From the NCBI RefSeq assembly GCF_001447785.1, contig NW_015169177.1, positions 1,098,032 to 1,162,031 on the forward strand: DNA of 64,000 nt. Direction: 5' to 3'. Shown here one piece after another: positions 2,027 to 62,600 of the stretch. The notes under the pieces are model-generated. The model was not told the origin of the DNA. It saw only the letters and a program-made list of their open reading frames with translations, and ran no database searches. The position numbers and the translations under genes are program-made. Positions within the stretch are counted from its first letter, which is position 1; each line of letters starts with the position of its first letter. The DNA is from Gekko japonicus. Taxonomy: Eukaryota.

Positions 2027-3022
2027 TGTATTTATAATGTATAAAGTGTGAAATAAATCTATTCTGATCAATTTCAAAAAGTTGCTTGTATTTGTATTTT
2101 ATCTGAGATTCTCTTGTTAGAATACCATATATGTATATTAGAACCAAATATAAATCCAACTGGATATGTTTTTACCAAAACCATCAGTTACAGTATTCAG
2201 GCAAATAAAGATACATAGAATGACAAATCATATCAAAATATACCCCGTAGGCAGGGGTCATTTCCTGCGGGAGCGGACAGGAGCGGAGCTCCGGCAGTAA
2301 GGAGCCCAGGGGGCGGGCACATGCAACAAGCCCCGCCCCCTGCTCCCAGCAGCCCTCAGTCAGAGCAAGAAGCAACCAGGAAAGTTGCAGAGCCCACGGC
2401 CCACCTTCAGGTACAAGCTCTCCCTCTTCTGTGAGGACAGATGGACAGCTCTGCACGTTCCCCCCCCCCCCCCATAGCTAGCAATCCAAAACAGTTCAGT
2501 GGCACCTTTAAGACCAAGTTTTATTTAAGTACAAGCTCTCCCTCCTCTGCGAGGACAGCTCTGCACGTTCCCCCCCCCCCAAAAACAGCTAGCAATCCAG
2601 AACAGTCCAGTGGAGCCTGAGCGGTGGGTGTTGCCTTCTGACACACTTCCGGTGATGTCAGGGGGTGTGGCATATGCAAATAAGTTATGCTAATAAGTTA
2701 TGCTAATGAGCTCCTGCACCTCTTTTTCTACGAAATGACCCCTGCCCGTAGGGTTGCATATTTCAAGCCTTCAAAGCTGTTCTACTACCCTACAGGTTAT
2801 CTTTTGACGTGATTTGTTGTTCTATGTATCTTTATTTGCTTGAATATTCTATGTAACTGATGGTTTTTGTAAAACACATGCAATTGGATTAATGTTTTGT
2901 TCTAATATATATGGTATATATGGTATTCTAAAGGAGAGAATCTCAGATAAAATACAAAAACAAGTAACTTTTTGAAATTGATCAGAATAGGTTTATTTCA
3001 CACTCTATACATTATAAATACA
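2027..3022. repeat. Long foldback (inverted-repeat) element, arms ~2027-2251 and ~2789-3022
   Basis: The arms align as reverse complements along their length, e.g. ATTCTGATCAATTTCAAAAAGTT vs AACTTTTTGAAATTGATCAGAAT. Confidence 0.9.
2252..2744. mobile_element. hAT-type non-autonomous element with GC-rich cargo
   Basis: Perfect 13-bp TIR CAGGGGTCATTTC/GAAATGACCCCTG and perfect 8-bp TSD CCCGTAGG (2244-2251, 2745-2752). Confidence 0.92.
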
Positions 3023-4313
3023 CCTGCTATTGCTTTGATATTTAGACTATCACACTGTGGTCCTTCTGTCTTATTTGTAGTGTTCACAGGGTCTATGCTT
3101 ATGTGAGCCGAATTTGGCTAATTGGATTTCACAGTTGGGAAACTTCAAAAAATTGTATAAAACTGACTGTGAAGCTTTTTAATCTGCACCAGTTTTTCAA
3201 CTGATTCTGGACGTTTTGTACTGCCAGAAAATGTTCAGGGTAACACTTTCACCTCAAGCAAATGATCTGGAATAGATCCTTTAATATCAATAAGCTGCAT
3301 TTTCACAATTGATACTAAACACTGCCTCTGATGTTTTCTCTACTTTGAACTTGTCTGAACACAGTGTTGACCATGTGAATCAAATATTTTTAATTAAAGA
3401 AATGTCTCTGTTCTGTAATTGGCTGGTGAGATTCTGTGACATTCTCTTTCCAACCATTTCCTTTACAAAATAAGCTTATAAAAGCTGTTAGCCTACAACA
3501 AATTTTACTAGCCTGCCTACTAATAGATACATGTGTATGTGTATGAATTTAAAAACGGCTTTAAAAGAGACAACAGATTAAGAATTCAAACAAAAAACTA
3601 GAGGGATAATTAAAAAAATAGGTTCATGTCAATGTTCTACAGGGCTTTGCGGTTGAACAGTCCTTCTTTCTCCATCCTCTGTTAATTTACTGGAAATCAG
3701 ACCAGAATTCTTGGGGATGAGTTCTGTGGGGGGGGGGGGGGGGGGTACATGTGAAGTTGCAAATGCTCAGAAACCACTAAGTGCCTTCTTTTTTGTTTTA
3801 TGCTGTAGTAACTATAGTTGGATCTTGTGTTTCTCTGACTCCATGCAAAACTAGTTTCCAAGTTTTCTTTTTAATCAACAGCTTCTGCAGTTCCTTCCCC
3901 CTTTTCCTTGTGACTCATCTCGGGGCAAGGGAAGGTAAATTCCAGATAAAACAGCTTCTAAAGGCAACACACACAGAGAAACACACACAGCATAGACAAT
4001 ATTGACTGTGTATTCCCTTAATTTGCTGAGGCTGGAAAAAGTAGCATAGTTTTTGCAAGGGAAAGCAGGAGTTCAGTCAGCAGTGAAACAAGTATGTCCA
4101 ATCCATTTTAAATTTTTAAAGGGTCTACATTCATGCTGGGAGATGTGTTGAATCATGGTATGATTGCGTGGGAGGCAGTACTGTTTGCCTCAGTATGAGC
4201 AATTTTCAAACCCAAGTTTCCTCTCCAGGACCTGAAGCCTCTCCCATGTTGCAAAACAACCCCTAGATTCAAATAGATTTAAGAATGGAAAAAGACACTT
4301 GTACATCCAGTAC

Positions 4314-4545
4314 AGAGCCAGTATGGTATAGTGGTTAAGAGTTTCAGACAAGCATCCGGGAGGCCCGGGTTTGAATCCCCACTTATGCCATGGAAGCTCT
4401 CCAGTCACACTGTCTCAGCCTAACCTACCTCACAGGGTTGTTGTGAGGATAAAATAGAGGAAAGGGGAACAATGTAAACTGCTTTGGGACCCAATTGTGG
4501 AGAAACGTGAGGTAAAAATGAATGAATTAAATAAATAATAATTAA
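4314..4545 (+). mobile_element. tRNA-derived SINE (Squam3/Ther1-MIR-like)
   Basis: A-box TGGTATAGTGG, B-box GGTTTGAATCC, core CTCAGCCTAACCTACCTCACAGGGTTGTTGTG, L2-like AT-rich tail. Confidence 0.8.
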
Positions 4546-4860
4546 ATACATGTATATAATGTTGGCTGTGTGCTGTGATGGTACAAATGCAGTAGATGCA
4601 AGAGAGGTTTTGCTTTCCAGTCTGAAATATTTGAGAAGAAGCCTCGGTTCTGAGCCATAATTGTACTGTAATCAGGGGACATGGTTTTGAATAAATGAAA
4701 CCACTTGTACTTGGGTAGAGAGAATGTGAAAACAAAGCAGGAAAAGCTCATACATGAAGTTTTTGCTGCTTCTCCCTTTAAGATACACTGAAATAGCTAC
4801 TGGGACAGATTGGGCTCATGTATGCATTAACTGGATAAATTCCAAATAATGTCTCTCCTG

Positions 4861-5080
4861 TATTTATTGCATTTGTTATCTTGACCTTCCTTCAAGGAGC
4901 TCAGGCCAATGTTTGTAGCTTCCCCTTCTCATTTTTTCCACAGAGCAGACCTAGGAGGTTGGTTAGGCTGACAAAGAGCATCTGGCCTAGATAAACCTAG
5001 GGAGCTGCATGGCTGAATAGGATTTGAGCCTAGGTCTTCCCGATTGTAACCTAAGGCTCTATCCACTATTCCACACTGGC
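4861..5080 (-). mobile_element. Degenerate Squam3/MIR-like SINE
   Basis: Reverse-complement similarity to the other SINE copies (GGTTAGGCTGA...CCACTATTCCACACTGGC). Confidence 0.6.
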
Positions 5081-5689
5081 TGTTGATATGTCCTATATGC
5101 AGTGTGTGTGTGCTGGGCTATCTCTGCTGTAGATGTTGCTGAAATTCAGCAATATCAAAATTTGAAGTGGATTTGCAGGTTTCTGGTAAGATGGTAAGCC
5201 ATCTAAGGAATCTGAAAGGATGCTGAATGCTTTGATTAAAATATAAAATTTCTATGTTGGGTCTTATGCATACCTTGATGTAGATGGTTTTGTGAATGTA
5301 ACCAAAGTCTGGGAACTAGCAAAGATGCAATAATGAAAGCAAAATGAGGTAGAAACTAGAAATGTTGATGCGTCTTTCAAAGTTAACAGTAAACTATATT
5401 TTTCAAAATCAACAATTACAAATTATAGGTATATCTATAAACCATTTTTCTTTCTTCATTTCAGGCTGTAATACTAAATGTAGTAACTTGAAAGAAAATT
5501 CTATTAAGATCAAAAGGAACTAATTCCAAGTAAAAATACTGAAGACTGGGCCATGAAGCTACAGTCCATTGTGCACTTGCTTGGATGTAAGAAATGCATG
5601 GGAAACCAACTGGATTTGATTCAAAGCAAATGTGTTCTAGTGTTAGGGTATACAAATGCCAGCAAATTGTCCTACTCCAAAGGCTGTTT

Positions 5690-5968
5690 TCAAAGGCTGG
5701 TGGGAGGAATCCCCCTCCCCCCCGAACAATGTCAGATGACATGCCAGTGTCACCCGGAAGTGATATAAGCATGTCGGTGACAGTGGGGGGAGGGTGACAC
5801 TGGTTTTTGGGCAAAACTCTATGGTTTGAGGGTAATTTTACTATAGAGTTTTGCCCCAAAACCAGAATGTTGCCCCGATGTGCCTACGTCACTTCTGGGT
5901 GATGCGTGATGTCACTGGCGACAGGAGCATCCCCCCTGTAGCATCTCAAACAGACCTGGCAACCCTAT
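5690..5968. mobile_element. MITE of the TAGGGTTGCC/GGCAACCCTA family
   Basis: Right end CCTGGCAACCCTA; internal palindrome AAAACTCTAT...ATAGAGTTTT. Confidence 0.6.
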
Positions 5969-7844
5969 TTGGTTACTGGGTTTGCTTCTCATCTAGTAGG
6001 GCAATCCTTCCTCTGCCCTTGGCCCCATTTTTCATGGCTGTTCTTGATTATGTGCAGCTATGGTATCCTACCCTCCGTGCTTTGGCACTGCACTTGCCCT
6101 CCTTCCTTTCTTCTTCAAGGGATCACATGTTGGACATGATAACATCAAATTGTTACAGGCAAATCCAACCTAGTTATGAGTTGATGTTGCTAAGGTTAAA
6201 TCAAGCAATTTAGGCAAAGTCTCTCCTAGCAAATTGAACACTTTTGGAGCAATACCTGAAAGATTATCAAGGGGAGAAAATTGTTGTTGACAATGAAGAT
6301 TTTCACAAAATAGGATTCCCAGTTTGGGTTGTGGGTGGTGGTGGTGGCGGCATATGGATGGAAGGCAACTTCCCATTATTCATTTATAACTTGCTGTTGG
6401 TGGTTCAGAACACTTCAAAGGAGACCTCAATCTGAAGAAAGAAAAATGGTTCATAGCTGCTTTATGATAGCTCATTTTCTTGAGCAGAGTATGTCAGAGA
6501 TCATTTTTCTTAAGCGCACAAACTCATAAATGGCAAAATGGGCTAGGTTCAATGTCTTAAACTTGCCTCTAGGCAGAAAATCAAATACATAGAATTTCAG
6601 GCCATATGGATGCAATTTGTCAAAGTTATGAGTAACTGAAAGAGTCTGATAATGAAATGTTGTTATTGGCTCTAACTATAGCTTATACTTCAATGCATGC
6701 TGTGACAAATGGTATATATTCCATGTGAAAGTGTCATGGATTTAATTACATAAAAATGACAGCATTGCTGTTTCACAGGATAAAACGTTAAAATCTTGTA
6801 CATTAGTTGTGGCAAAGGACTTACAGAGACCTGCATGAGAACTGGCATAGCAATACTGATTCGGACTGAACTACACACCAGAGTCTCTGCTTCACATTTT
6901 GCTTGTGTTATGAACTCTAGATATATGGGCCACATGTGAATGCAAAGGAGCCAAAACCAACCTGGATACCTGTAATGTGTGTGGTGGGAAACATTTTATG
7001 ATAAACATATGTTTAAACTGACTGTGAAGGTGTGAAGTTAAGATCCAGTGAGTTAGCTGGGTTCATCTGTTGCAGGAAAAACAAAGAGCCCTATAACAAT
7101 TAAAAAGATGAATGCATTTTTTTCTTTATCTTTATAGATCTACAAATCTCTTTGATTTAAGAAGACATACAAATGGGAGACTGGCTAAAATCATGATGGT
7201 GCTTGGCAATTAAAGCACAAGTTGTAGCCATAAAAAGTTAAAATCCAATTTCTACTTATGATATTACAGTATAGGATTAACTATTGCAATAATTGTTTGC
7301 TAACTTATTGACCTTTCCCAGCTACATATAAAACCCTTTCTTTAATAACTTCCTTTGAGTTGAATTTTATACTTTGGAAATATAATATAGCAGTTTTCCT
7401 CTTTTTTCATTTTTGTCACAGGCTGTTATGAGTAAACGTGTGAAAAAATAAAGTGGTAGTTTGAAAAAGTGGAAGTTCAGTTTCCTGTAAACAAATGTTA
7501 AAAATGTTAAAATCCTTGAGTAGTTTAATATTTAATAATGTCCTTGAAACTTGCACATGATTTAGAAGAAAAAAATACCCCCAAATCCTAAACTTAAACT
7601 TGCCTCTTTAATGTTCAAACAATGAATATATTTTAGATTGTTAATACAGGTAAAACTCTTTGACAGACAAGTCATAGATGCTGCTAAAGGTACTAATGTG
7701 CTAACCAGGGAATGTGTTTTGGACAGCACTGTACTCCACATCAGTTTTGCAGATCAGGGACAGAAATAAACATGTTGCTCCATATAATTATTCAGGTCTT
7801 ATCTGTGGGATGTAAGTGCCCTTGATCTGTTAAATTATGGACAG

Positions 7845-19263: not shown

Positions 19264-19591
19264 CAGGGCTCTTTTTGAAGAAAAAGCCCAGCAGGAACTC
19301 ATTAGCATAATAGGCCACACCCAACAGCAGTCACTCATTAGCATATTGGGCCACACCCCTGACAGCACAGCTCATTAGCACATTAGGCCGCACCCACATG
19401 TTACCAGAAGTGTGGTTATCCAGCCACACCCACCTTTTGCTTGTAGGCCACACACCCCTAATGTAGCCAATCCTAATGAGTTTTTGCTATTGGGTGTGAC
19501 CTATTATGCTAATGAGTTCCTGCTGGGCGTGGCCAACTTGGGAGCCAGCCGGAACTCCGTTCCTGTGCGTTCCTGCCCCAAAATAGCCCTG
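19264..19591. mobile_element. hAT MITE inserted into a SINE remnant
   Basis: TIR CAGGGCT/AGCCCTG; perfect 8-bp TSD GATGACCT (19256-19263, 19592-19599); SINE core continues on the right. Confidence 0.9.
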
Positions 19592-22219
19592 GATGACCTT
19601 AGGCCAGTCACTGTCCTTCAACTTAATCTACCTCCTGGGCTTTTGTGTGGCTGGAGAAGGAATCGTATATGTAATTTGAACTTTTTGAAAAAAATGCAGG
19701 GCAAAAGAAAACCATCATGCATGTAGCAGACATTGCATTGTTACTCATATAACTTATATAATAACCAGCAATGAAAACGGCACTTTGCCTCCATCTAAAA
19801 TTTAACCTAAGGGATAAGGAGAAATGGGAGTAAAATGTGTGTTCACTGCAGTTACAGGTGTTCAGGCTTCATTTCAGTAGGGATGGGATTGTGCCAAAGG
19901 TTTTAGGGTCTTTTTAAAGTCAATCTGGAGCAACCTTTGTTTGTCTAGACTGCTCTTGTAAAATACAGACAAATTAAATTGCAGCAGCTTCAAGATGCAA
20001 ACTCAGCAGTTTAAATTTAAACAGTTCTGTTCATATCATTACCATTCTAGGTTTAACTTGCTTCTCTTCTCTCTCAGGTCCAATTTGTCAAATAACCCCT
20101 ATTAATGCATTAATAGGGAAAGCATGACATTGGGGGTTCTGATATAGGAGCCACCATTTTAAACACAAATTGGCCACCCTAGCATTGTTCACTTCAGTAC
20201 ACATTTGGAAAGATGCCTATTCACCTCCTGGAACAGTATTAACATTTACAGCTAGTCTCTGGATGGATAGCCCCCACTTTGCTTCGCACAGTGTTGCAGA
20301 TGTGTTGTTTTCCGATTGTGCTGTGATCTGTACCCTGTAACTTTGGTATTCATGTTGCAGCAGTGACCAAGGTCAGTGATTTCTGCATGGTGTGCCTACA
20401 GTAATGCCAAGTGTCAAGACTGCCTCTGGTAGGTGCTTTTGGAGGTGCCATTCTGGTTGTATGCAACTTGGTAGCACATAAACTGGCTAATCTCTTAAAG
20501 GATCTGCTGTTTATGTTATTAGTATAATAGACATTGTTGAGAGCAATTAAATGAAAACGAAGGGAATTTAGAATTATATTTAAAGTGGCAACTGTTTATT
20601 AATAGTAATTAACATAAAAGCACAGCTGTTAAAATTGGAGGGCATGATAAGGAGGTGGAGGGTGTGCTTCCCTCATGACCTCTGGTAGTAGGGAGGAGGG
20701 TTCCCTTCTGGCTGAAGGGGTTTTCTCCTCAGCCCCCAGTATCAGAGGCAACCCTGTCCAGCTTTCTTTTCAGGTATAGAAGAATATAGAAATACAGAGA
20801 TGAGCGTATAAAACAGAAGCTAGTAGACTGAATGGGTAATAAATTAATTGAAAATTAAAGGAAGATGTATTAATGGTTAGAATGTGATTTAGAGGGAGTT
20901 GTACGGTGGTTTTATATGCGGGTAGGATATGGGAATAAGAAAAAGAAGAGGATACAATCTGGATTTGGATTAAGTTTAATTTGTCAGTTATATAGATGAA
21001 ATGTAACCTCATGTTTAAATACATAAATACATACATATATACATACAAATAAATACATACTGTATGAAATAGTTCTATGAAAGATATACTCTACAAAATA
21101 AAAATAAGGATCTGCTCTGCCACATGCTTGAACAAGTTCAACTCCCTGCGTACTTGTCTTGTACGTGCACTAAATTTTCTCAGCTTGTCAATTCTTTTTC
21201 CTGATTGGGTTGTAATTATTTTTAGTGCTTTCAGACATGTCAAGCCATGACTTTAGATTTAAAACAGAGGTTAGCATTTTTGGGTTATGTGTGTATCTTT
21301 CCCATTTATATAGAGCTAAAGGGGATTAGTGCTGTTTGGAAATATATTTTGTGAATGTTACGCTAGTCAAAGGAAATCTGAGCCATGTACATGTTTGGTC
21401 TTTGTTCTCCCTGCTCCTTTTCTCAATACAATGGGTGATTGTGCTGTAAAGAACAGTTTATAAAAAAACAAACAGCTCACCAATAAACTTTAATTCTTGA
21501 AGAACAAGGTTCAGGAAATAAGCTTGTGTTGTAGGTATAAATAGCATCTAGTTTATGCCCAAACAGCTGAAAGGCTTTCCTCCCTGTTTACTGTAAGTCT
21601 CTTACAGTTGCGATTGCCTGTCTTCAGCCTTTCTGGACAAAATGGATGCATTTAGAAATGTAGGGGAATAAAATGAAATTTTTTACAAAGATGAATATAG
21701 CAACAACAAAAACGTAAATTCACTGTGTGTCCTATTGGAGGAACTAATAGTCTCAGCAGGCATGTAACTGCAAATGAAAAGAGGATCAGGAGACCCCAAA
21801 AATTTTGAACCGTGATGGTGAAATAACAAAGGATAGACCTAGATGGAAATCTTGCCCCAGTGAAACTAATAAAAAGAATGTAAGCTACAGTATTCCTTAG
21901 AAGGTGCAGGGAGGAAATTAAGAGAGCTGAAATAGATTTTGCGGAGTTAATAGTGCTCCTGAAAGCCTTCTCTTTTACAAGATGTAATTCTGCAAAGCTT
22001 GTAAAATGCGGACTCTATGGGTAAGCTAAACATTTTTGTGGGAAGTGGACACCCCATGTAATTGTTTGATCTTTTCATGTTTAGATTGTAGGCTAGAGTT
22101 GGCTCAGGTTTAGCCAATACAACACGAAACATCCAATGTGAGTGTTTTGTGGTGGCTGATTTCAGATGTGTGATGGAGAGTGGAAGATGTTTGTGAAATC
22201 TATCCCCTCTCTCCACTGC

Positions 22220-23819: not shown

Positions 23820-24350
23820 GGCTGCGGTCACACGTAACAGAAGCCACACAAGTGAGACGGAAAACAGCCGGAGTTTCCGGGCGCGATCTCACCAGCACAT
23901 CTGGGAAGCGTAGCACTCCCGTGGCTCAACCGAGGCTTCCAGCCGAAACTGCGTGGCAAAAAACTAGTACCTTGGAGGTACTAGTTTCCAGAAACTGCGG
24001 GGCAAGGACGGGCGTCTGATCGCGTTTCCGGTGGCATCCGGCGCCCGCCCATGTCCCCTTGCAAATAAGGTGGTTTTTTTTGTCCAAGTCTCTGTGGATG
24101 CGCATGTGCACCCAACGGAGCATGCGCATTTGTCATGTACACAAAAATAAAAAACAGTTTGCCGCGGCGCGCGCTTCTTCGTTGCGCGCCGGCTTGTCCT
24201 GTGATCAGCACCTCTCCCTTGCCATGGAACCTCCATGGAACCTCCACGGTACCTCCACAGGAGGTCTGATCACGTAACTGCGCAGTAGTTTGCCCCAGGG
24301 CAAACAGCCACGCTTCTCCTCTGCAGTTTCCTGCCCGTGTGACCGGGGCC
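23820..24350. mobile_element. PIF/Harbinger-type MITE
   Basis: TIR GGCTGCGGTCACACG / CGTGTGACCGGGGCC; 3-bp TAA TSD (23817-23819, 24351-24353); CpG-rich. Confidence 0.85.
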
Positions 24351-24630
24351 TAAGAGATGTTTTCTGTCATTCGTTTGCAAGGCTGTGTTATGAGGATCAG
24401 TCCTCAGTAATCTGTATGATATTTTGAAGGTGTATAGTTAACTGCTGTAGCTGAATGCACCAGAGGCTGATTGGGTGTGAATCATAGAGACTCTGTCTTC
24501 GAACATAGCATATTTGAGCCAGCACTTGAAATACTGTCTTTGATCCCCCAGCCTATGGTGTCCTCTGTGAAACCAACAGCGCTACCTTAGGTGCTGCATG
24601 TATTGTGCCCAGCGTCACATTACTGAGAAC

Positions 24631-26345
24631 CAGGGGTCTTTTTGGGCCGGAGCCCGACCCTGGGTCCCCCGAGCTCGCGCAAAAGCGCTGCGACTCGGGG
24701 GAGAACCGGAGAGCCCCAAGACACACTTCCAGTGAGTTATGCTCATTACCATATGCCGGTGCTTGTAGTTCCCCGGGCGCACACCACCATGCGCGGCGAA
24801 AAGGAGGTGTGCCGGGACACGAGGAGTGAGTTGGCGTGGAGTTCCGCGGGCGCCGGTCAGCCAGCTTCCCTGTTTTGGAGCAGAGGGCCTGCGGGAGCTT
24901 CTCCCGGCTTTGGTGGGGGGTAATTTAAAAACCGCCGCCCTTGGAGTTTGCAAACTTTGGCCGCCGGAGGGAGGCGGAGCGCGGCAGGCCAGCCCGCCAG
25001 CCCAGATGCAGAGACAAAGAGGCCCCCGGGTGCGGTGTTTGGGCACTCTTCTTTACCAAACGCCGGTGCTTGTAGTTCCCCGGGCGCACACCAGCATGCG
25101 CGGCGAAGAGGAGGTGCGCCCGGGACATGAGGAGCGAGTTCGCGTGGAGTTCCGTGCGTGCCGGTCAGCCGGCTTCCCTGTTCCGGGGCGGAGGGCCTGC
25201 GGGAGCTTCTCCCGGCTTTGGTGGGGGGTAATTTGAAAACCGCCGCCCCTGGAGTTTGAAAACTTTGGGAGGCGGAGCGCGGCGGGCCAGCCCGCCAGCC
25301 CAGACGCAGAAATAAAGAGGCCCCCGGGTGCGGTGTTCGGGCGCTCTTCTTCTGCCTGCCGGGTCGTGTCTGTTGTGGGTGGAGAAGCGAGCCGTGTTTA
25401 GGGATTGATCTGCAAGTGGGACCGCGGCCCGGCCGGCAAGAAGTGCTGAGAAGTTTGAAGTGAATGCTGAGGCGGGTATTGCTCCTTCCCGGCCACCCCC
25501 CTTTGGAGTTCAGGCTGGGTCTCCTTCAGCAGAGGGGCGTTTTCAGGCTGGCGGCGCCCTAGTGGGCACTCCTGGGAGGGGGTGGGCAACGCCAGATGCC
25601 TGGGGTCTCTTTGCTTGGTCATGCGGGTGGCGCGTGGGTTTTGGAGCGGGGGGGCAGAGTAGAGAGGAAGGGGGCGGGCCCTGGTTGGCGCGTTATTGAG
25701 ACTTTGAATGGAGGACTCACTTTCCCACAATGCTTTGCTCCCTTTCTCTTTAATCGCTTCTTCGGCTACACGAGGGAGGCCGGGTGAGTGCGCGAGCCTG
25801 CAAGTGGTGCGGGGGCCCCCAAAGAGTAAGGGGGCAGAAAGAGTAGGGGGAGAGCTGTCCTCTTTTAAATATCCTGCATCTGAAGGAAGACTGGAGGAAG
25901 CTTGGTCTTTCCCTCTAAAAGACCAACATTCTTTGTGAAAGGGCCTCTTTCCGTCCCCAGCCAGTAAAAGATTCCAAAAGCTTAAGGCTCGACAGTTGAA
26001 TCAAGGCGCATATTCGTGGTTTGGTATTCCTGGTGCCGATAAGTAAACCTTTTTGGAAGAGATGCTGGAAGTCCTTTTGGATGCAAGGAAGTCCTTTTGG
26101 ATTTGGAGAGGTCATTCATATTTCGCGGGGTGAATTTCTCAGCCCCAGCACTGTTTTTTCTTTGCAGACCATAGGGTATGTTTGAGAGAGTTTGGGATAC
26201 AAGTGTTTATGCCTTTATATAGCCCTAAACAGAAGCCCCGTTTATGATGTCCCCCGAGACACACTTCCGGTGATGTCAGGGGGTGTGGCATATGGTAATG
26301 AGTTATGCTAATGAGCTCCGGCAGCTCTTTTTCTACAAAAAGACC
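24631..26345. mobile_element. hAT non-autonomous element carrying ~1.5 kb GC/CpG-rich cargo
   Basis: Left TIR CAGGGGTCTTTTT and right AAAAAGACC (terminal bases lost); flanks CTGAGAAC / CAGAGAAC; right ~90 bp nearly identical to 2641-2744. Confidence 0.8.
24746..25351. repeat. Two-copy ~307 bp GC-rich tandem duplication
   Basis: GCCGGTGCTTGTAGTTCCCCGGGCGCACAC begins at 24755 and again at 25062, and the units align throughout. Confidence 0.93.
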
Positions 26346-27182
26346 CAGAGAACTGAGAAATGCTGTACAGTTATCAAAGACATGCTTGGAGTAAGAAGTG
26401 TGAAAGCCATATTATGGGTTAAACTGGGTATATTGTTGAAAGAATTAATAAGGATTTAATCGGGTGTAATCAAGCTTTCTTACGGTGCTAGTGGTAATTT
26501 GGATATCCTTCTGTAAATTACACAGAAGAGTCAAAATAATATCCCATTGATCTGGGTTGCCGACCAGAGCCAAGTGAATTACATCGCAGCTGCATCTGTT
26601 TGTGGGCTGTCACTCTTGTCTTCCTCTACCATCTCTAGGTTTGGAGGTAAGTCAAACAGTGGGCAGTTACTGTGGTTTGCTGTTTTCATTTTGTGATGTT
26701 TTCTTTACATGTTGCTTCTCAAAATTTTCAGTTTCTTCCCCTGGAACAAAGGGGAAAGTGTATTTTTTCCAGTGTATCCTAAAAAAAACAAGAAGTGTCA
26801 CTGTTTTCACATATGCTGTCCAGGAATGCTATAAACTTTGGAAAAATATGAAAAACACTCAGCGTTGGAATTTATCATTGTTCTCAGTGCCCATTTTGCA
26901 TCAAGGCAAATAGTTTGTATGATTGCCTTGATCATGAGCTTCCATTTCACAGTGAAAGGCCTTACAGATAGGTTTGTGTCTGTCCAATGGAAGTTTTTGG
27001 CATGATGGCAGGCTGGGTAGCTGATTTTCATACTCACAATTTACTAACAGTACCTTGCTTGTGAGCAACACTGAAAGCCAGTTTATTAGCATGTGGTTCT
27101 GTTTTTCTTTTTTAAAAATAGATGTCATTCATTTTTCTTTCCTGTTAAGGTGACACGTTTCAGACTCTTTTCAAAAGTTTCT

Positions 27183-42351: not shown

Positions 42352-43019
42352 CAAGAGGGGGACCCGCGATACTCGGGGGGGGGAGAAGAGCTCCGTCTCC
42401 TACATCCCCACCCTCGATCTCCCCGAGGCTGCGGGGGCGGCGGCAGCGGCGAGGCCGGTGTCCCCCCCCCGCCCGTCCGCCGGCTTCGAGNNNNNNNNNN
42501 NNNNNNNNNNNNNNNNNNNNNNNNNNNNNNNNNNNNNNNNNNNNNNNNNNNNNNNNNNNNNNNNNNNNNNNNNNNNNNNNNNNNNNNNNNNNNNNNNNNN
42601 NNNNNNNNNNNNNNNNNNNNNNNNNNNNNNNNNNNNNNNNNNNNNNNNNNNNNNNNNNNNNNNNNNNNNNNNNNNNNNNNNNNNNNNNNNNNNNNNNNNN
42701 NNNNNNNNNNNNNNNNNNNNNNNNNNNNNNNNNNNNGGGCGGCGGCAGCAAGGCCTCTCTCCCGCCCGCCTGCCCGCCGGCCGGAGGCGGCAGCGTTCGC
42801 AGCATTCGCAGAGCGTCTCCTGCACACGCGCAGGAGACGCTCTTGCACTTTCGGGGGGATTTAAACTTCCCCCCGATTTTTTTTTTTAAATTTTTTATTT
42901 TTGTGCACACGTGGGGACTGGCCTACGTGTGCACAAACCTCCCCTGGCCCCCCAGGTGCCCCCGAAGTGCAGATTTAGATATCCGCACTCCAGGGGCAAC
43001 TTCAGCATTCGTATAAGGA
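42352..43019 (-). mobile_element. Probable non-autonomous Helitron (contains an N gap)
   Basis: Minus strand begins A|TCCTTATA and ends with hairpin CCCGAG-TAT-CGCGGG, a 7-nt spacer, then CTTG|T; no TSD. Confidence 0.6.
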
Positions 43020-61583: not shown

Positions 61584-61848
61584 CCAGTTTGGTGTAGTGG
61601 TTAAGTGCACGGACTCCAATCTGGGTGAACCGGGTCTGATTCCCCATTCCTCCACTTGCAGCTGCTGGATGATCTTGGGCAAGCCATAGTTCTGTCAGAG
61701 GTGTTCTTGAAAGAGCAGTTCTCCCAGAGTTCTCTCAGCCCCACCTACCTCACAGGGTGCCTGTTGTGGGGAGGGGAAGGGAAAGGAGTTTGTAAGCCGC
61801 TCTGAGACGCTGAGTGAAGGGCAGGGTATAAATTCAATCTCCTCCTCC
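61584..61848 (+). mobile_element. Squam3-like SINE nested in DIRS
   Basis: Highly similar to 27183-27435. Confidence 0.88.
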
Positions 61849-61859
61849 TGGGTCCAATC

Positions 61860-62600
61860 TCCACTTCAAATTCCTGAACAGTTTTGTGAGATACAGGAAG
61901 TTCAAAATGGGGACCATGAAGACCATTGTGAAAGCCTTACAGCCAAACGACTTCATGGTCTCCATTGATTTGACCAAGGCATATCTTCATGTGTCCATAA
62001 TTCTCCAGGACAGACAGTATCTGAGATTCATCTTTAGTCAAAAACACTTCCAGGTCAGGGCCATGCCATTTGGGTTGACATGAGCGCCCTGGATATTCAC
62101 AAAACTGTTCACTTGATGTAAGCATGTGTCTCAAAGGAATCTATATCTGTCTCTACCTTGACAATCTCCTTATAAGGTCATCTTCACGAGAGCAGGCACT
62201 CAGGGACATTCAGGAGACTATCCAGTGCCTCTCCGCTCACGGCTTCCTGATCAACCTCCAGAAGAGCCAACTAACACCTGCCCAAGTCATCCCACATTTG
62301 GGGTCAGTGATAGATTCAATCCAGAGAAAAGTGTTTCTTCCACTAGACAGAGCAGAGAAGATCAGTCAGACCATGAAACAGGTTCGCTCTGTGAAATCAG
62401 TGGACTTGATGATCCTAGCACATCTGCTAGGTTTCATGATTGCAGCCATCAAGACAGTCCCTTGGGCCTGAGCACACTCTTGGGTACTTCAGTGGATGCT
62501 ATTGCCATATCAAAAGCTCATAGCCCTCCGAAAGCACATCAGAGTCAGCATCAGTCAGTATCTCAGGAAGGACCTCATTTGGTGGACAACCAAGAAACAC
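61860..62600 (+). pseudogene. DIRS reverse transcriptase, disrupted
   Basis: ORFs 61886-62083 and 62124-62471 with stops and frameshifts; YLDD changed to YLDN. Confidence 0.9.

What the first reader, a model, noticed from the sequence alone, without database searches (positions are those of the whole stretch)
24631..26353. 'Pack-hAT': transposon ends enclosing a CpG-island/promoter-like cargo
Seen: the ends belong to the same family as 2252-2744 (shared TIR and ~90-bp right subterminal block, plus an inverted CTCATTACCATATGCC on the left) with a near-TSD. The ~1.5 kb interior is unrelated to that copy and very CpG-rich. It has GGAACTACAA motifs on the minus strand (~24763-24772 and ~25070-25079), a GC box (~25671), a donor-like GG|GTGAGT (~25783) and an acceptor-like TTTTTTCTTTGCAG (~26167). 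In both family copies the cargo is tandemly duplicated (307 bp here, 118 bp there). Established: Pack-type capture is well known in plants (Pack-MULE, Pack-CACTA) and less documented for vertebrate hATs; ACTACA motifs mark ZNF143/THAP11 promoters. Inference: a lizard hAT family that captures host GC-rich promoter/first-exon DNA through abortive gap repair and relocates it. This is the best candidate for an undescribed system in the window.
Basis: partly seen in the sequence, partly recalled or inferred. Interest (0 to 1): 0.72.

Follow-up and report, generated by a model that had tools for sequence, protein, structure and literature searches.

The report
Lizard transposon carrying microRNA-cluster promoter DNA
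A small jumping DNA element in this lizard-like genome carries a 1.2-kb copy of the CpG island just upstream of a microRNA cluster on another contig, and its relatives carry the starts of other genes, sometimes two or three at once; this copy is likely a silent, immobile remnant, and such gene capture is known in animals but is rarely reported as so repeated and patchwork.

Summary
Window 24631-26346 is a non-autonomous element with hAT-type ends and an 8-bp target duplication. A related species has the empty site. The interior is a copy of a CpG island on another contig, without TIRs, 1.46 kb upstream of a mir-17/17/17/19/92 cluster (miR-106a~363 by recalled synteny); the hairpins were not taken. 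Seven other places carry the same capture, four with perfect, distinct TSDs. A sibling keeps a fold-back hairpin and 3-nt microhomologies at the junction, which points to template switching. Relatives carry C1QBP exon 1, an opsin-like exon 1, a PCLO-like exon 1 and a further island, some as serial mosaics; all 5 traced donors are CpG-island-like (background 3 of 365 tiles). This copy has lost its right TIR tip and 20 of 77 donor CpGs, and shows almost no RNA in two runs. Corrections: the 2252-2744 interior is ordinary sister-subfamily sequence, not cargo; promoter and splice use are not shown; no transposase partner was found. Animal multicopy Pack-hATs are known (Tan 2021), so this is a variant: Pack-MULE-like in repetition and mosaicism.

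The parts
24623..24630 (+). left target-site duplication CTGAGAAC (8 bp)
   Evidence: single copy at the empty site in organism B
24631..24644 (+). left terminal inverted repeat
   Evidence: the first 25 nt occur exactly at 21 places in the genome; same ends in siblings with perfect TSDs
24645..24714 (+). one ~65-bp GC-rich subterminal unit (tandem in most family members)
   Evidence: 70 matches among 40 of 120 candidates scored; siblings
24715..24741 (+). second, partly deleted copy of the start of the right subterminal block
   Evidence: same 11-mer at 24720 and 26258; undeleted form in L125
24742..24757 (-). inverted 16-nt arm of a fold-back scar; it overlaps the cargo start by GCC
   Evidence: reverse complement of 26287-26302; whole hairpin in L125, z -6.7
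24755..26250 (+). cargo: copy of the CpG island at G000:C10146 ~123220-122071 (minus strand), upstream of the mir-17/17/17/19/92 cluster
   Evidence: (86-93% identity; 434 donor bases are N)
24746..25351 (+). 307-bp tandem duplication of the cargo's 5' part, private to this copy
24763..24772 (-). GGAACTACAA half-motif (ZNF143/THAP11-like, recalled); second copy at 25070-25079
   Evidence: one copy in the donor; binding not tested
25670..25789 (+). GC box (25670-25679) and donor-like GGGTGAGT (25782-25789)
   Evidence: also in sibling L019; the donor is N here; no spliced read
26154..26181 (+). acceptor-like tract followed 8 nt later by GTATGT
   Evidence: identical in the donor; no spliced read
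26251..26346 (+). right subterminal block and right TIR lacking its last 3 nt
   Evidence: read depth implies about 29,000-51,000 related blocks
26347..26353 (+). one filler A plus 6 of 8 nt of the right TSD
   Evidence: organism B contig joins 24624 to 26348
2252..2744 (+). sister-subfamily element, perfect TSD CCCGTAGG, ordinary interior (not cargo)

Best explanation
This is one copy of a non-autonomous, hAT-type transposon that holds 1.2 kb of the CpG island lying upstream of a microRNA cluster elsewhere in the genome, likely picked up by template switching during DNA repair or replication and then spread by a transposase supplied from another element. Steps. (1, shown) The parent is a very high-copy short element with a GC-rich tandem left arm and a ~90-bp right block. 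(2, junctions shown, process inferred) Synthesis across one copy stalled in the right block, folded back on itself for 16 nt, switched at GCC to the donor island, copied ~1.15 kb, and returned at GT(C) to an earlier point of the element, so element sequence flanks the cargo twice. (3, shown) The product moved: 8 places share the junctions, TSDs differ, and the orthologous site is empty in a related species; the transposase is inferred, not found. (4, shown for siblings) Copies then swapped or added cargo, giving two- and three-donor mosaics. (5, partly inferred) This copy duplicated 307 bp, lost its right TIR tip and is losing CpGs as methylated DNA does, so it is likely immobile and silent.
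For: Donor without TIRs, island continuing on both sides, 5 Rfam hairpins downstream on the same strand, between a glypican exon and a CCDC160-like ORF. Siblings with perfect TSDs L021, L022, L026, L027. Empty site, flanks 6% diverged. Hairpin junction in L125 and microhomologies. Other donors without TIRs: C1QBP, class-A GPCR exon, L130, L185. CpG to TpG/CpA in 20 of 77 sites against 33 of 794 other mismatches, p 4e-6. RNA depth 0-1.5 over the cargo and no splice joint.
Against: No transposase locus with these ends among the 30 best of 150 scored PF05699 matches, 1.5-kb flanks only, so 'hAT' rests on TIR and TSD shape. Polarity against this donor is weak in the window copy: 20 CpG losses against 10 reverse changes, p 0.10. 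434 donor bases are N, and the L022 mosaic joint lies in an N gap. RNA of the donor locus could not be examined. The RNA negative rests on 3% and 12% of two runs of unknown tissue, with human-like reads dropped. The empty site rests on one contig. Gap repair and fork stalling are not separated.
Confidence: 0.85

Rival explanations
1. A native promoter at this place, flanked by chance by two separate transposon fragments.
For: CpG-rich, motif-bearing interior; damaged right end and imperfect TSD.
Against: Organism B joins 24624 to 26348 with one TSD copy; the same interior sits between the same ends at other loci; no gene was found in 145 window ORFs scanned.
Confidence: 0.01
2. An ordinary internal-deletion derivative of the autonomous element.
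For: The ends are those of a high-copy family.
Against: The cargo matches only 10 places, one of them a locus without TIRs beside a miRNA cluster; plain family members have a different interior.
Confidence: 0.02
3. Capture by two neighbouring elements jumping together as a composite, or through an RNA copy.
For: Two related short elements lie 5.5-7 kb upstream of the donor island.
Against: Both are complete, have their own TSDs and lie on the same side; cargo junctions sit inside the element with fold-back and microhomology; the C1QBP, opsin-like and PCLO-like cargos run on past the exon into unspliced genomic DNA.
Confidence: 0.05
4. The capture is real, but the relocated island works as a new promoter in some tissue and is being kept.
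For: CpG loss (26%) is lower than in L020 (47%) and L021 (41%), and o/e stays 0.87 in the duplicated part; motifs are doubled.
Against: CpG loss is about three times the rate expected from other sites; RNA is near zero over cargo and flanks in two runs; no host gene found in the window.
Confidence: 0.07

Closest known systems
Multicopy animal Pack-TIRs, e.g. Pack-hAT-N8_XT with 291 bp of the CAPSL 5' UTR in three copies (Tan et al. 2021, PMC8277862; read: abstract, passages, sections 9 and 10, one supplement row)
   Same: hAT-type non-autonomous ends, distant donor, gene 5' DNA as cargo, distinct TSDs, template switching followed by transposition (their FoSTeST model).
   Different: They found 4 multicopy cases in 100 genomes, median cargo 224 bp, and 0 Pack-TIRs in the one lizard (whose library held no hAT consensus). 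Here one clade has 5 traced cargos of 0.6-1.2 kb, each in 2-8 copies, with multi-donor mosaics, a preserved fold-back junction and an empty orthologous site.
Rice Pack-MULEs (PMC5861414, passages read) and plant Pack-TYPE elements including maize Pack-hAT (PMC8903248, passages read)
   Same: Non-autonomous TIR elements that take up GC-rich host DNA and raise local GC; cargo inherited through later transpositions.
   Different: Short TIR and 8-bp TSD rather than the long MULE TIR; vertebrate host; CpG decay and no expression seen here; the element's share of the family is not measured.
Bat Helibat Helitrons carrying promoters and 5' UTRs (PMC4224331, abstract only)
   Same: Amniote DNA transposons that amplify host promoters and first exons.
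   Different: Rolling-circle elements without TIR or TSD; contributions to transcripts were reported there, not here.

Membership tests
Pack-TIR, multicopy class (Tan 2021) | host sequence between the two ends of one TIR element | tested here: met
   cargo 24755-26250
Pack-TIR, multicopy class (Tan 2021) | parental copy elsewhere without the element | tested here: met
   C10146, no pairing TIRs in 100 kb fetched
Pack-TIR, multicopy class (Tan 2021) | several copies with distinct TSDs, far from the parent | tested here: met
   8 places on 8 contigs; perfect TSD in 4 of 7 siblings, 1 shortened, 2 truncated
Pack-TIR, multicopy class (Tan 2021) | no cargo-free element at the orthologous site | tested here: met
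   empty site in one contig of organism B
Pack-TIR, multicopy class (Tan 2021) | transcribed as a chimera (a minority trait) | tested here: inconclusive
   near-zero RNA in 3% and 12% of two runs
hAT superfamily | 8-bp TSD | tested here: met
hAT superfamily | short TIR starting CAG (recalled trait) | tested here: met
   12-14 bp TIR in siblings; right tip lost in this copy
hAT superfamily | autonomous partner with a hAT transposase and the same ends | tested here: inconclusive
   none among 30 loci read of 150 scored and 1509 candidates
Pack-MULE | long TIRs and 9-10-bp TSD of Mutator elements | tested here: not met
   short TIR, 8-bp TSD; it works like one but is not a member
Pack-MULE | preference for GC-rich cargo | tested here: met
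   5 of 5 traced donors GC 0.60-0.76, CpG o/e 0.77-0.93 against 3 of 365 background tiles; donors were reached from one clade
miR-106a~363 host-gene 5' region (donor identity) | mir-17 x3, mir-19, mir-92 in order, between GPC3 and CCDC160 | tested here: met
   cluster name, GPC3 name and synteny are recalled; the sixth hairpin was not tested
miR-106a~363 host-gene 5' region (donor identity) | transcription start inside or beside the captured stretch | not tested
   no RNA lay of the donor locus was obtained

The most novel reading that the evidence does not exclude
This lizard lineage has a Pack-MULE-scale CpG-island shuffler: a hAT-type family with tens of thousands of copies whose GC-rich arm and hairpin-prone right block repeatedly capture promoters and first exons from hundreds of genes, stack them into multi-gene mosaics, and sometimes give new promoters or chimeric transcripts to the host.
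Probability: 0.3. Interest if true: 0.75.

Novelty: new variant of a known kind. Interest (0 to 1): 0.5.

Why it matters
Multicopy gene capture by cut-and-paste elements was counted only four times in 100 animal genomes (PMC8277862). One small clade here already gives five multicopy cargos and serial mosaics, so squamate genomes may have been missed for lack of repeat libraries. The sibling series also preserves the capture event step by step (fold-back, switch, return, later deletion), which makes the template-switch model directly testable in an amniote. Practically, such copies will be mis-annotated as CpG-island promoters or gene starts. This particular copy likely does nothing.

Tried and rejected
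Host gene in the window: 145 of 191 listed ORFs scanned against Pfam gave only reverse-transcriptase fragments and weak hits; the weak Crisp hit at 5508-5765 was rejected on reading. Donor as a protein-coding gene start: no coding exon in the 143 ORFs on the cargo strand over 40 kb beyond reverse-transcriptase fragments; the miRNA cluster explained this. Captured miRNA hairpins: none in the window or in 18 loci holding family copies. Autonomous partner: not found. Donor of the L117/L119 cargo: search swamped by another repeat. Donor of L115: one candidate (L174, 84%), but part of it recurs at about 28 places, so it is not counted. No indexed RNA holder was listed; this is no evidence either way. 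An RNA lay of the donor locus was not obtained. A tree of the 300-bp unit is too short to order the copies; it only groups unit 1 with L020 (0.93). Literature: 'Pack-TIR' with 'gecko' gave 0 papers; searches showed no squamate Pack-hAT report in their listings; the synteny search gave 0 papers. Subscription journals and Repbase were not searchable.

Full report
1. Observation. The window lies in a 2.49-Gb genome; a lizard, probably a gecko, is inferred from recalled repeat types and from earlier AI notes, not tested. The element starts at 24631 behind CTGAGAAC. Its right block matches 2640-2741 at 83 of 102 columns. The listed motifs, the inverted 16-mer and the 307-bp duplication (88% identity) are all present. 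The interior has CpG o/e 0.73 against 0.30 for the window. The right end reads GACCC-A-GAGAAC where siblings read GACCCCTG plus a full TSD.

2. It is an insertion. A contig of a related species (organism B, run X18) lies on 24493-24624 and continues directly at 26348. The flanks differ at 36 of 577 letters. The empty site holds CTGAGAAC once. So the TSD is 8 bp, the element ends at 26346, and five letters (TIR tip plus two TSD letters) were replaced by one. This rests on one contig of depth 8.

3. The interior is multicopy and has a donor. Two interior searches found 10 places, this one included. Seven siblings share one or both cargo junctions: L021, L022, L026 and L027 have both ends and perfect, different TSDs; L020 has a TSD two letters short; L019 and L125 are truncated. 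L026 and L027 are 99-100% alike where compared, so the clade moved recently. C10146 has the sequence once, without family ends, and the island runs on at both sides; 434 bases of it are N. Rfam finds mir-17, mir-17, mir-17, mir-19 and mir-92 hairpins on the same strand, the first 1.46 kb past the cargo's 3' end. A glypican exon lies 51 kb downstream and a CCDC160-like ORF 22 kb upstream (score 0.98). From recalled synteny this is the miR-106a~363 cluster beside GPC3; a paper search for it gave nothing. The hairpins are in neither the window nor 18 loci with family copies. The tenth place, L024, is a 3.65-kb element with sister-type ends and TSD ACTACAAG (read by eye) holding 1.4 kb of the same island with other borders, likely a separate or older capture.

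4. Mechanism. L125 keeps the ancestral 5' junction: left arm, start of the right block, a 5-nt loop, 16 nt of the block inverted, then the donor. It folds at z -6.7, 0 of 200 shuffles as stable; the window version has lost one arm and does not fold. The switch into the donor shares GCC; the return shares GT(C) and lands at the start of the right block again. Fold-back, short microhomology and re-copied element sequence are the marks of template switching (established knowledge, recalled). L030/L184, L110/L129 and L115 also have element sequence repeated or resumed on both sides of the cargo. Whether the trigger was an excision gap or a stalled fork is open. Why CpG islands: likely the GC-rich left arm offers microhomology and islands are open chromatin (inference). 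The 307-bp repeat includes part of the scar, so it postdates capture; its units differ by 12% and unit 1 groups with L020, which suggests a switch between two copies rather than recent slippage (weak).

5. The family does this repeatedly. Of 21 places with the exact left 25-mer, I read 6 as plain, 12 as holding non-family interior and 3 as not readable. The pattern came from this copy, so the share is inflated. Donors without TIRs were traced for 7 of the 21. They are: C1QBP exon 1, whose next exon hits PDB 7te3 and 1p32, behind the family's left end in 6 places; exon 1 of a class-A GPCR (Pfam 7tm_1; OPN3 by recall), in 2; a PCLO-like exon 1 (name recalled), in 2 with different TSDs; and this island. 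Outside the 21, an unnamed island at C10128 is in 2 copies. L077 carries C1QBP only; L075 adds the opsin-like exon, which is 2.1% from its donor against 5.6% for the C1QBP part, so the captures were sequential. L022 joins that pair to the 3' end of this window's cargo inside one perfect TSD (joint in an N gap). L026 and L027 join the first 145 bp of this cargo to another mosaic at GGAGGGC. All 5 traced donors have GC 0.60 or more and CpG o/e 0.77 or more, against 3 of 365 background tiles. Read depth puts the right block at about 29,000-51,000 copies. Three earlier AI notes on this genome describe like cases; they are leads only.

6. Function of this copy. 20 of 77 donor CpGs are TpG or CpA here, against 4.2% mismatch elsewhere (p 4e-6), as expected of methylated DNA. 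Against a clean polarity, 10 sites go the other way (p 0.10); three other donor-copy pairs pooled give 59 against 6. Two RNA runs (3% and 12% read, 88% likeness) gave depth 0-1.5 over the cargo, 0 over the flanks, and no splice joint among those shown; tissue is unknown and some reads are filtered. With the right TIR tip gone the copy is likely immobile. Promoter or exon use of the donor motifs is not shown.

7. The second element. 2252-2744 has a perfect TSD but a different left arm; its interior recurs in 5 other fetched loci and is the commonest read continuation before the right block. It is an ordinary sister-subfamily copy.

8. Known systems. Tan et al. 2021 (PMC8277862; abstract, passages, sections 9-10, supplement search) report 370 animal Pack-TIRs, 208 of them hAT, only 4 multicopy, and 0 in the lizard genome they screened. 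This element meets their multicopy criteria. It works like a rice Pack-MULE in GC preference and inherited cargo (PMC5861414, passages) but fails MULE structure. hAT membership rests on TIR and TSD; no transposase partner was found in 30 loci read. Searches showed no squamate case; subscription papers and Repbase were out of reach.

9. Verdict. A real multicopy Pack-hAT; a new variant of a known kind through its repeated, CpG-island-biased, multi-donor captures and a preserved capture junction. The copy itself is likely dead. Interest 0.5.

Noticed in passing
window 2027-3022: Element with 88-bp (95%) and 63-bp (84%) inverted arms, into whose middle the 2252-2744 element inserted.
   Followed up: no
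window 19264-19593: A third related short element with a CAGGGCTC end and internal inverted repeats, 88-92% like copies at the donor contig.
   Followed up: no
window 23830-24330: CpG-rich palindromic stretch just left of the element, likely another small transposon; a similar stretch lies in L118.
   Followed up: no
window 42501-43000: CpG o/e 1.66 at only 32% GC, with long overlapping open frames on both strands and no Pfam hit.
   Followed up: no
window 61832-62468: Reverse-transcriptase fragments of a LINE.
   Followed up: no
L024 ~3130-6780 (C13978): 3.65-kb sister-type element with TSD ACTACAAG holding 1.4 kb of the same donor island plus about 1.6 kb of untraced DNA.
   Followed up: partly
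L075 1403-3155 and L022 4440-6038: C1QBP exon 1 fused in front of a whole opsin-like exon 1; in L022 the opsin part differs from its donor at only 1 of 357 non-CpG sites.
   Followed up: partly
L080 1402-2003: Left end of one subfamily, C1QBP piece, right end of the sister subfamily, no matching TSD: likely a recombinant between two elements.
   Followed up: partly
L115 430-1560: GC-rich cargo with its own internal duplication; its first part recurs at about 28 places at ~80%.
   Followed up: partly
L021 2708-3093: Full-length 7SK match (125.7 bits) 1 kb from a Pack copy.
   Followed up: no
L109 201-1251: Family copy with a ~170-bp GC-rich insert and a second right end 385 bp further on.
   Followed up: no
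G000 C8369, C11306, C14031, C3432 (L143-L146): hAT-domain open frames of 727-791 aa without family ends nearby; possibly domesticated ZBED-type genes.
   Followed up: no
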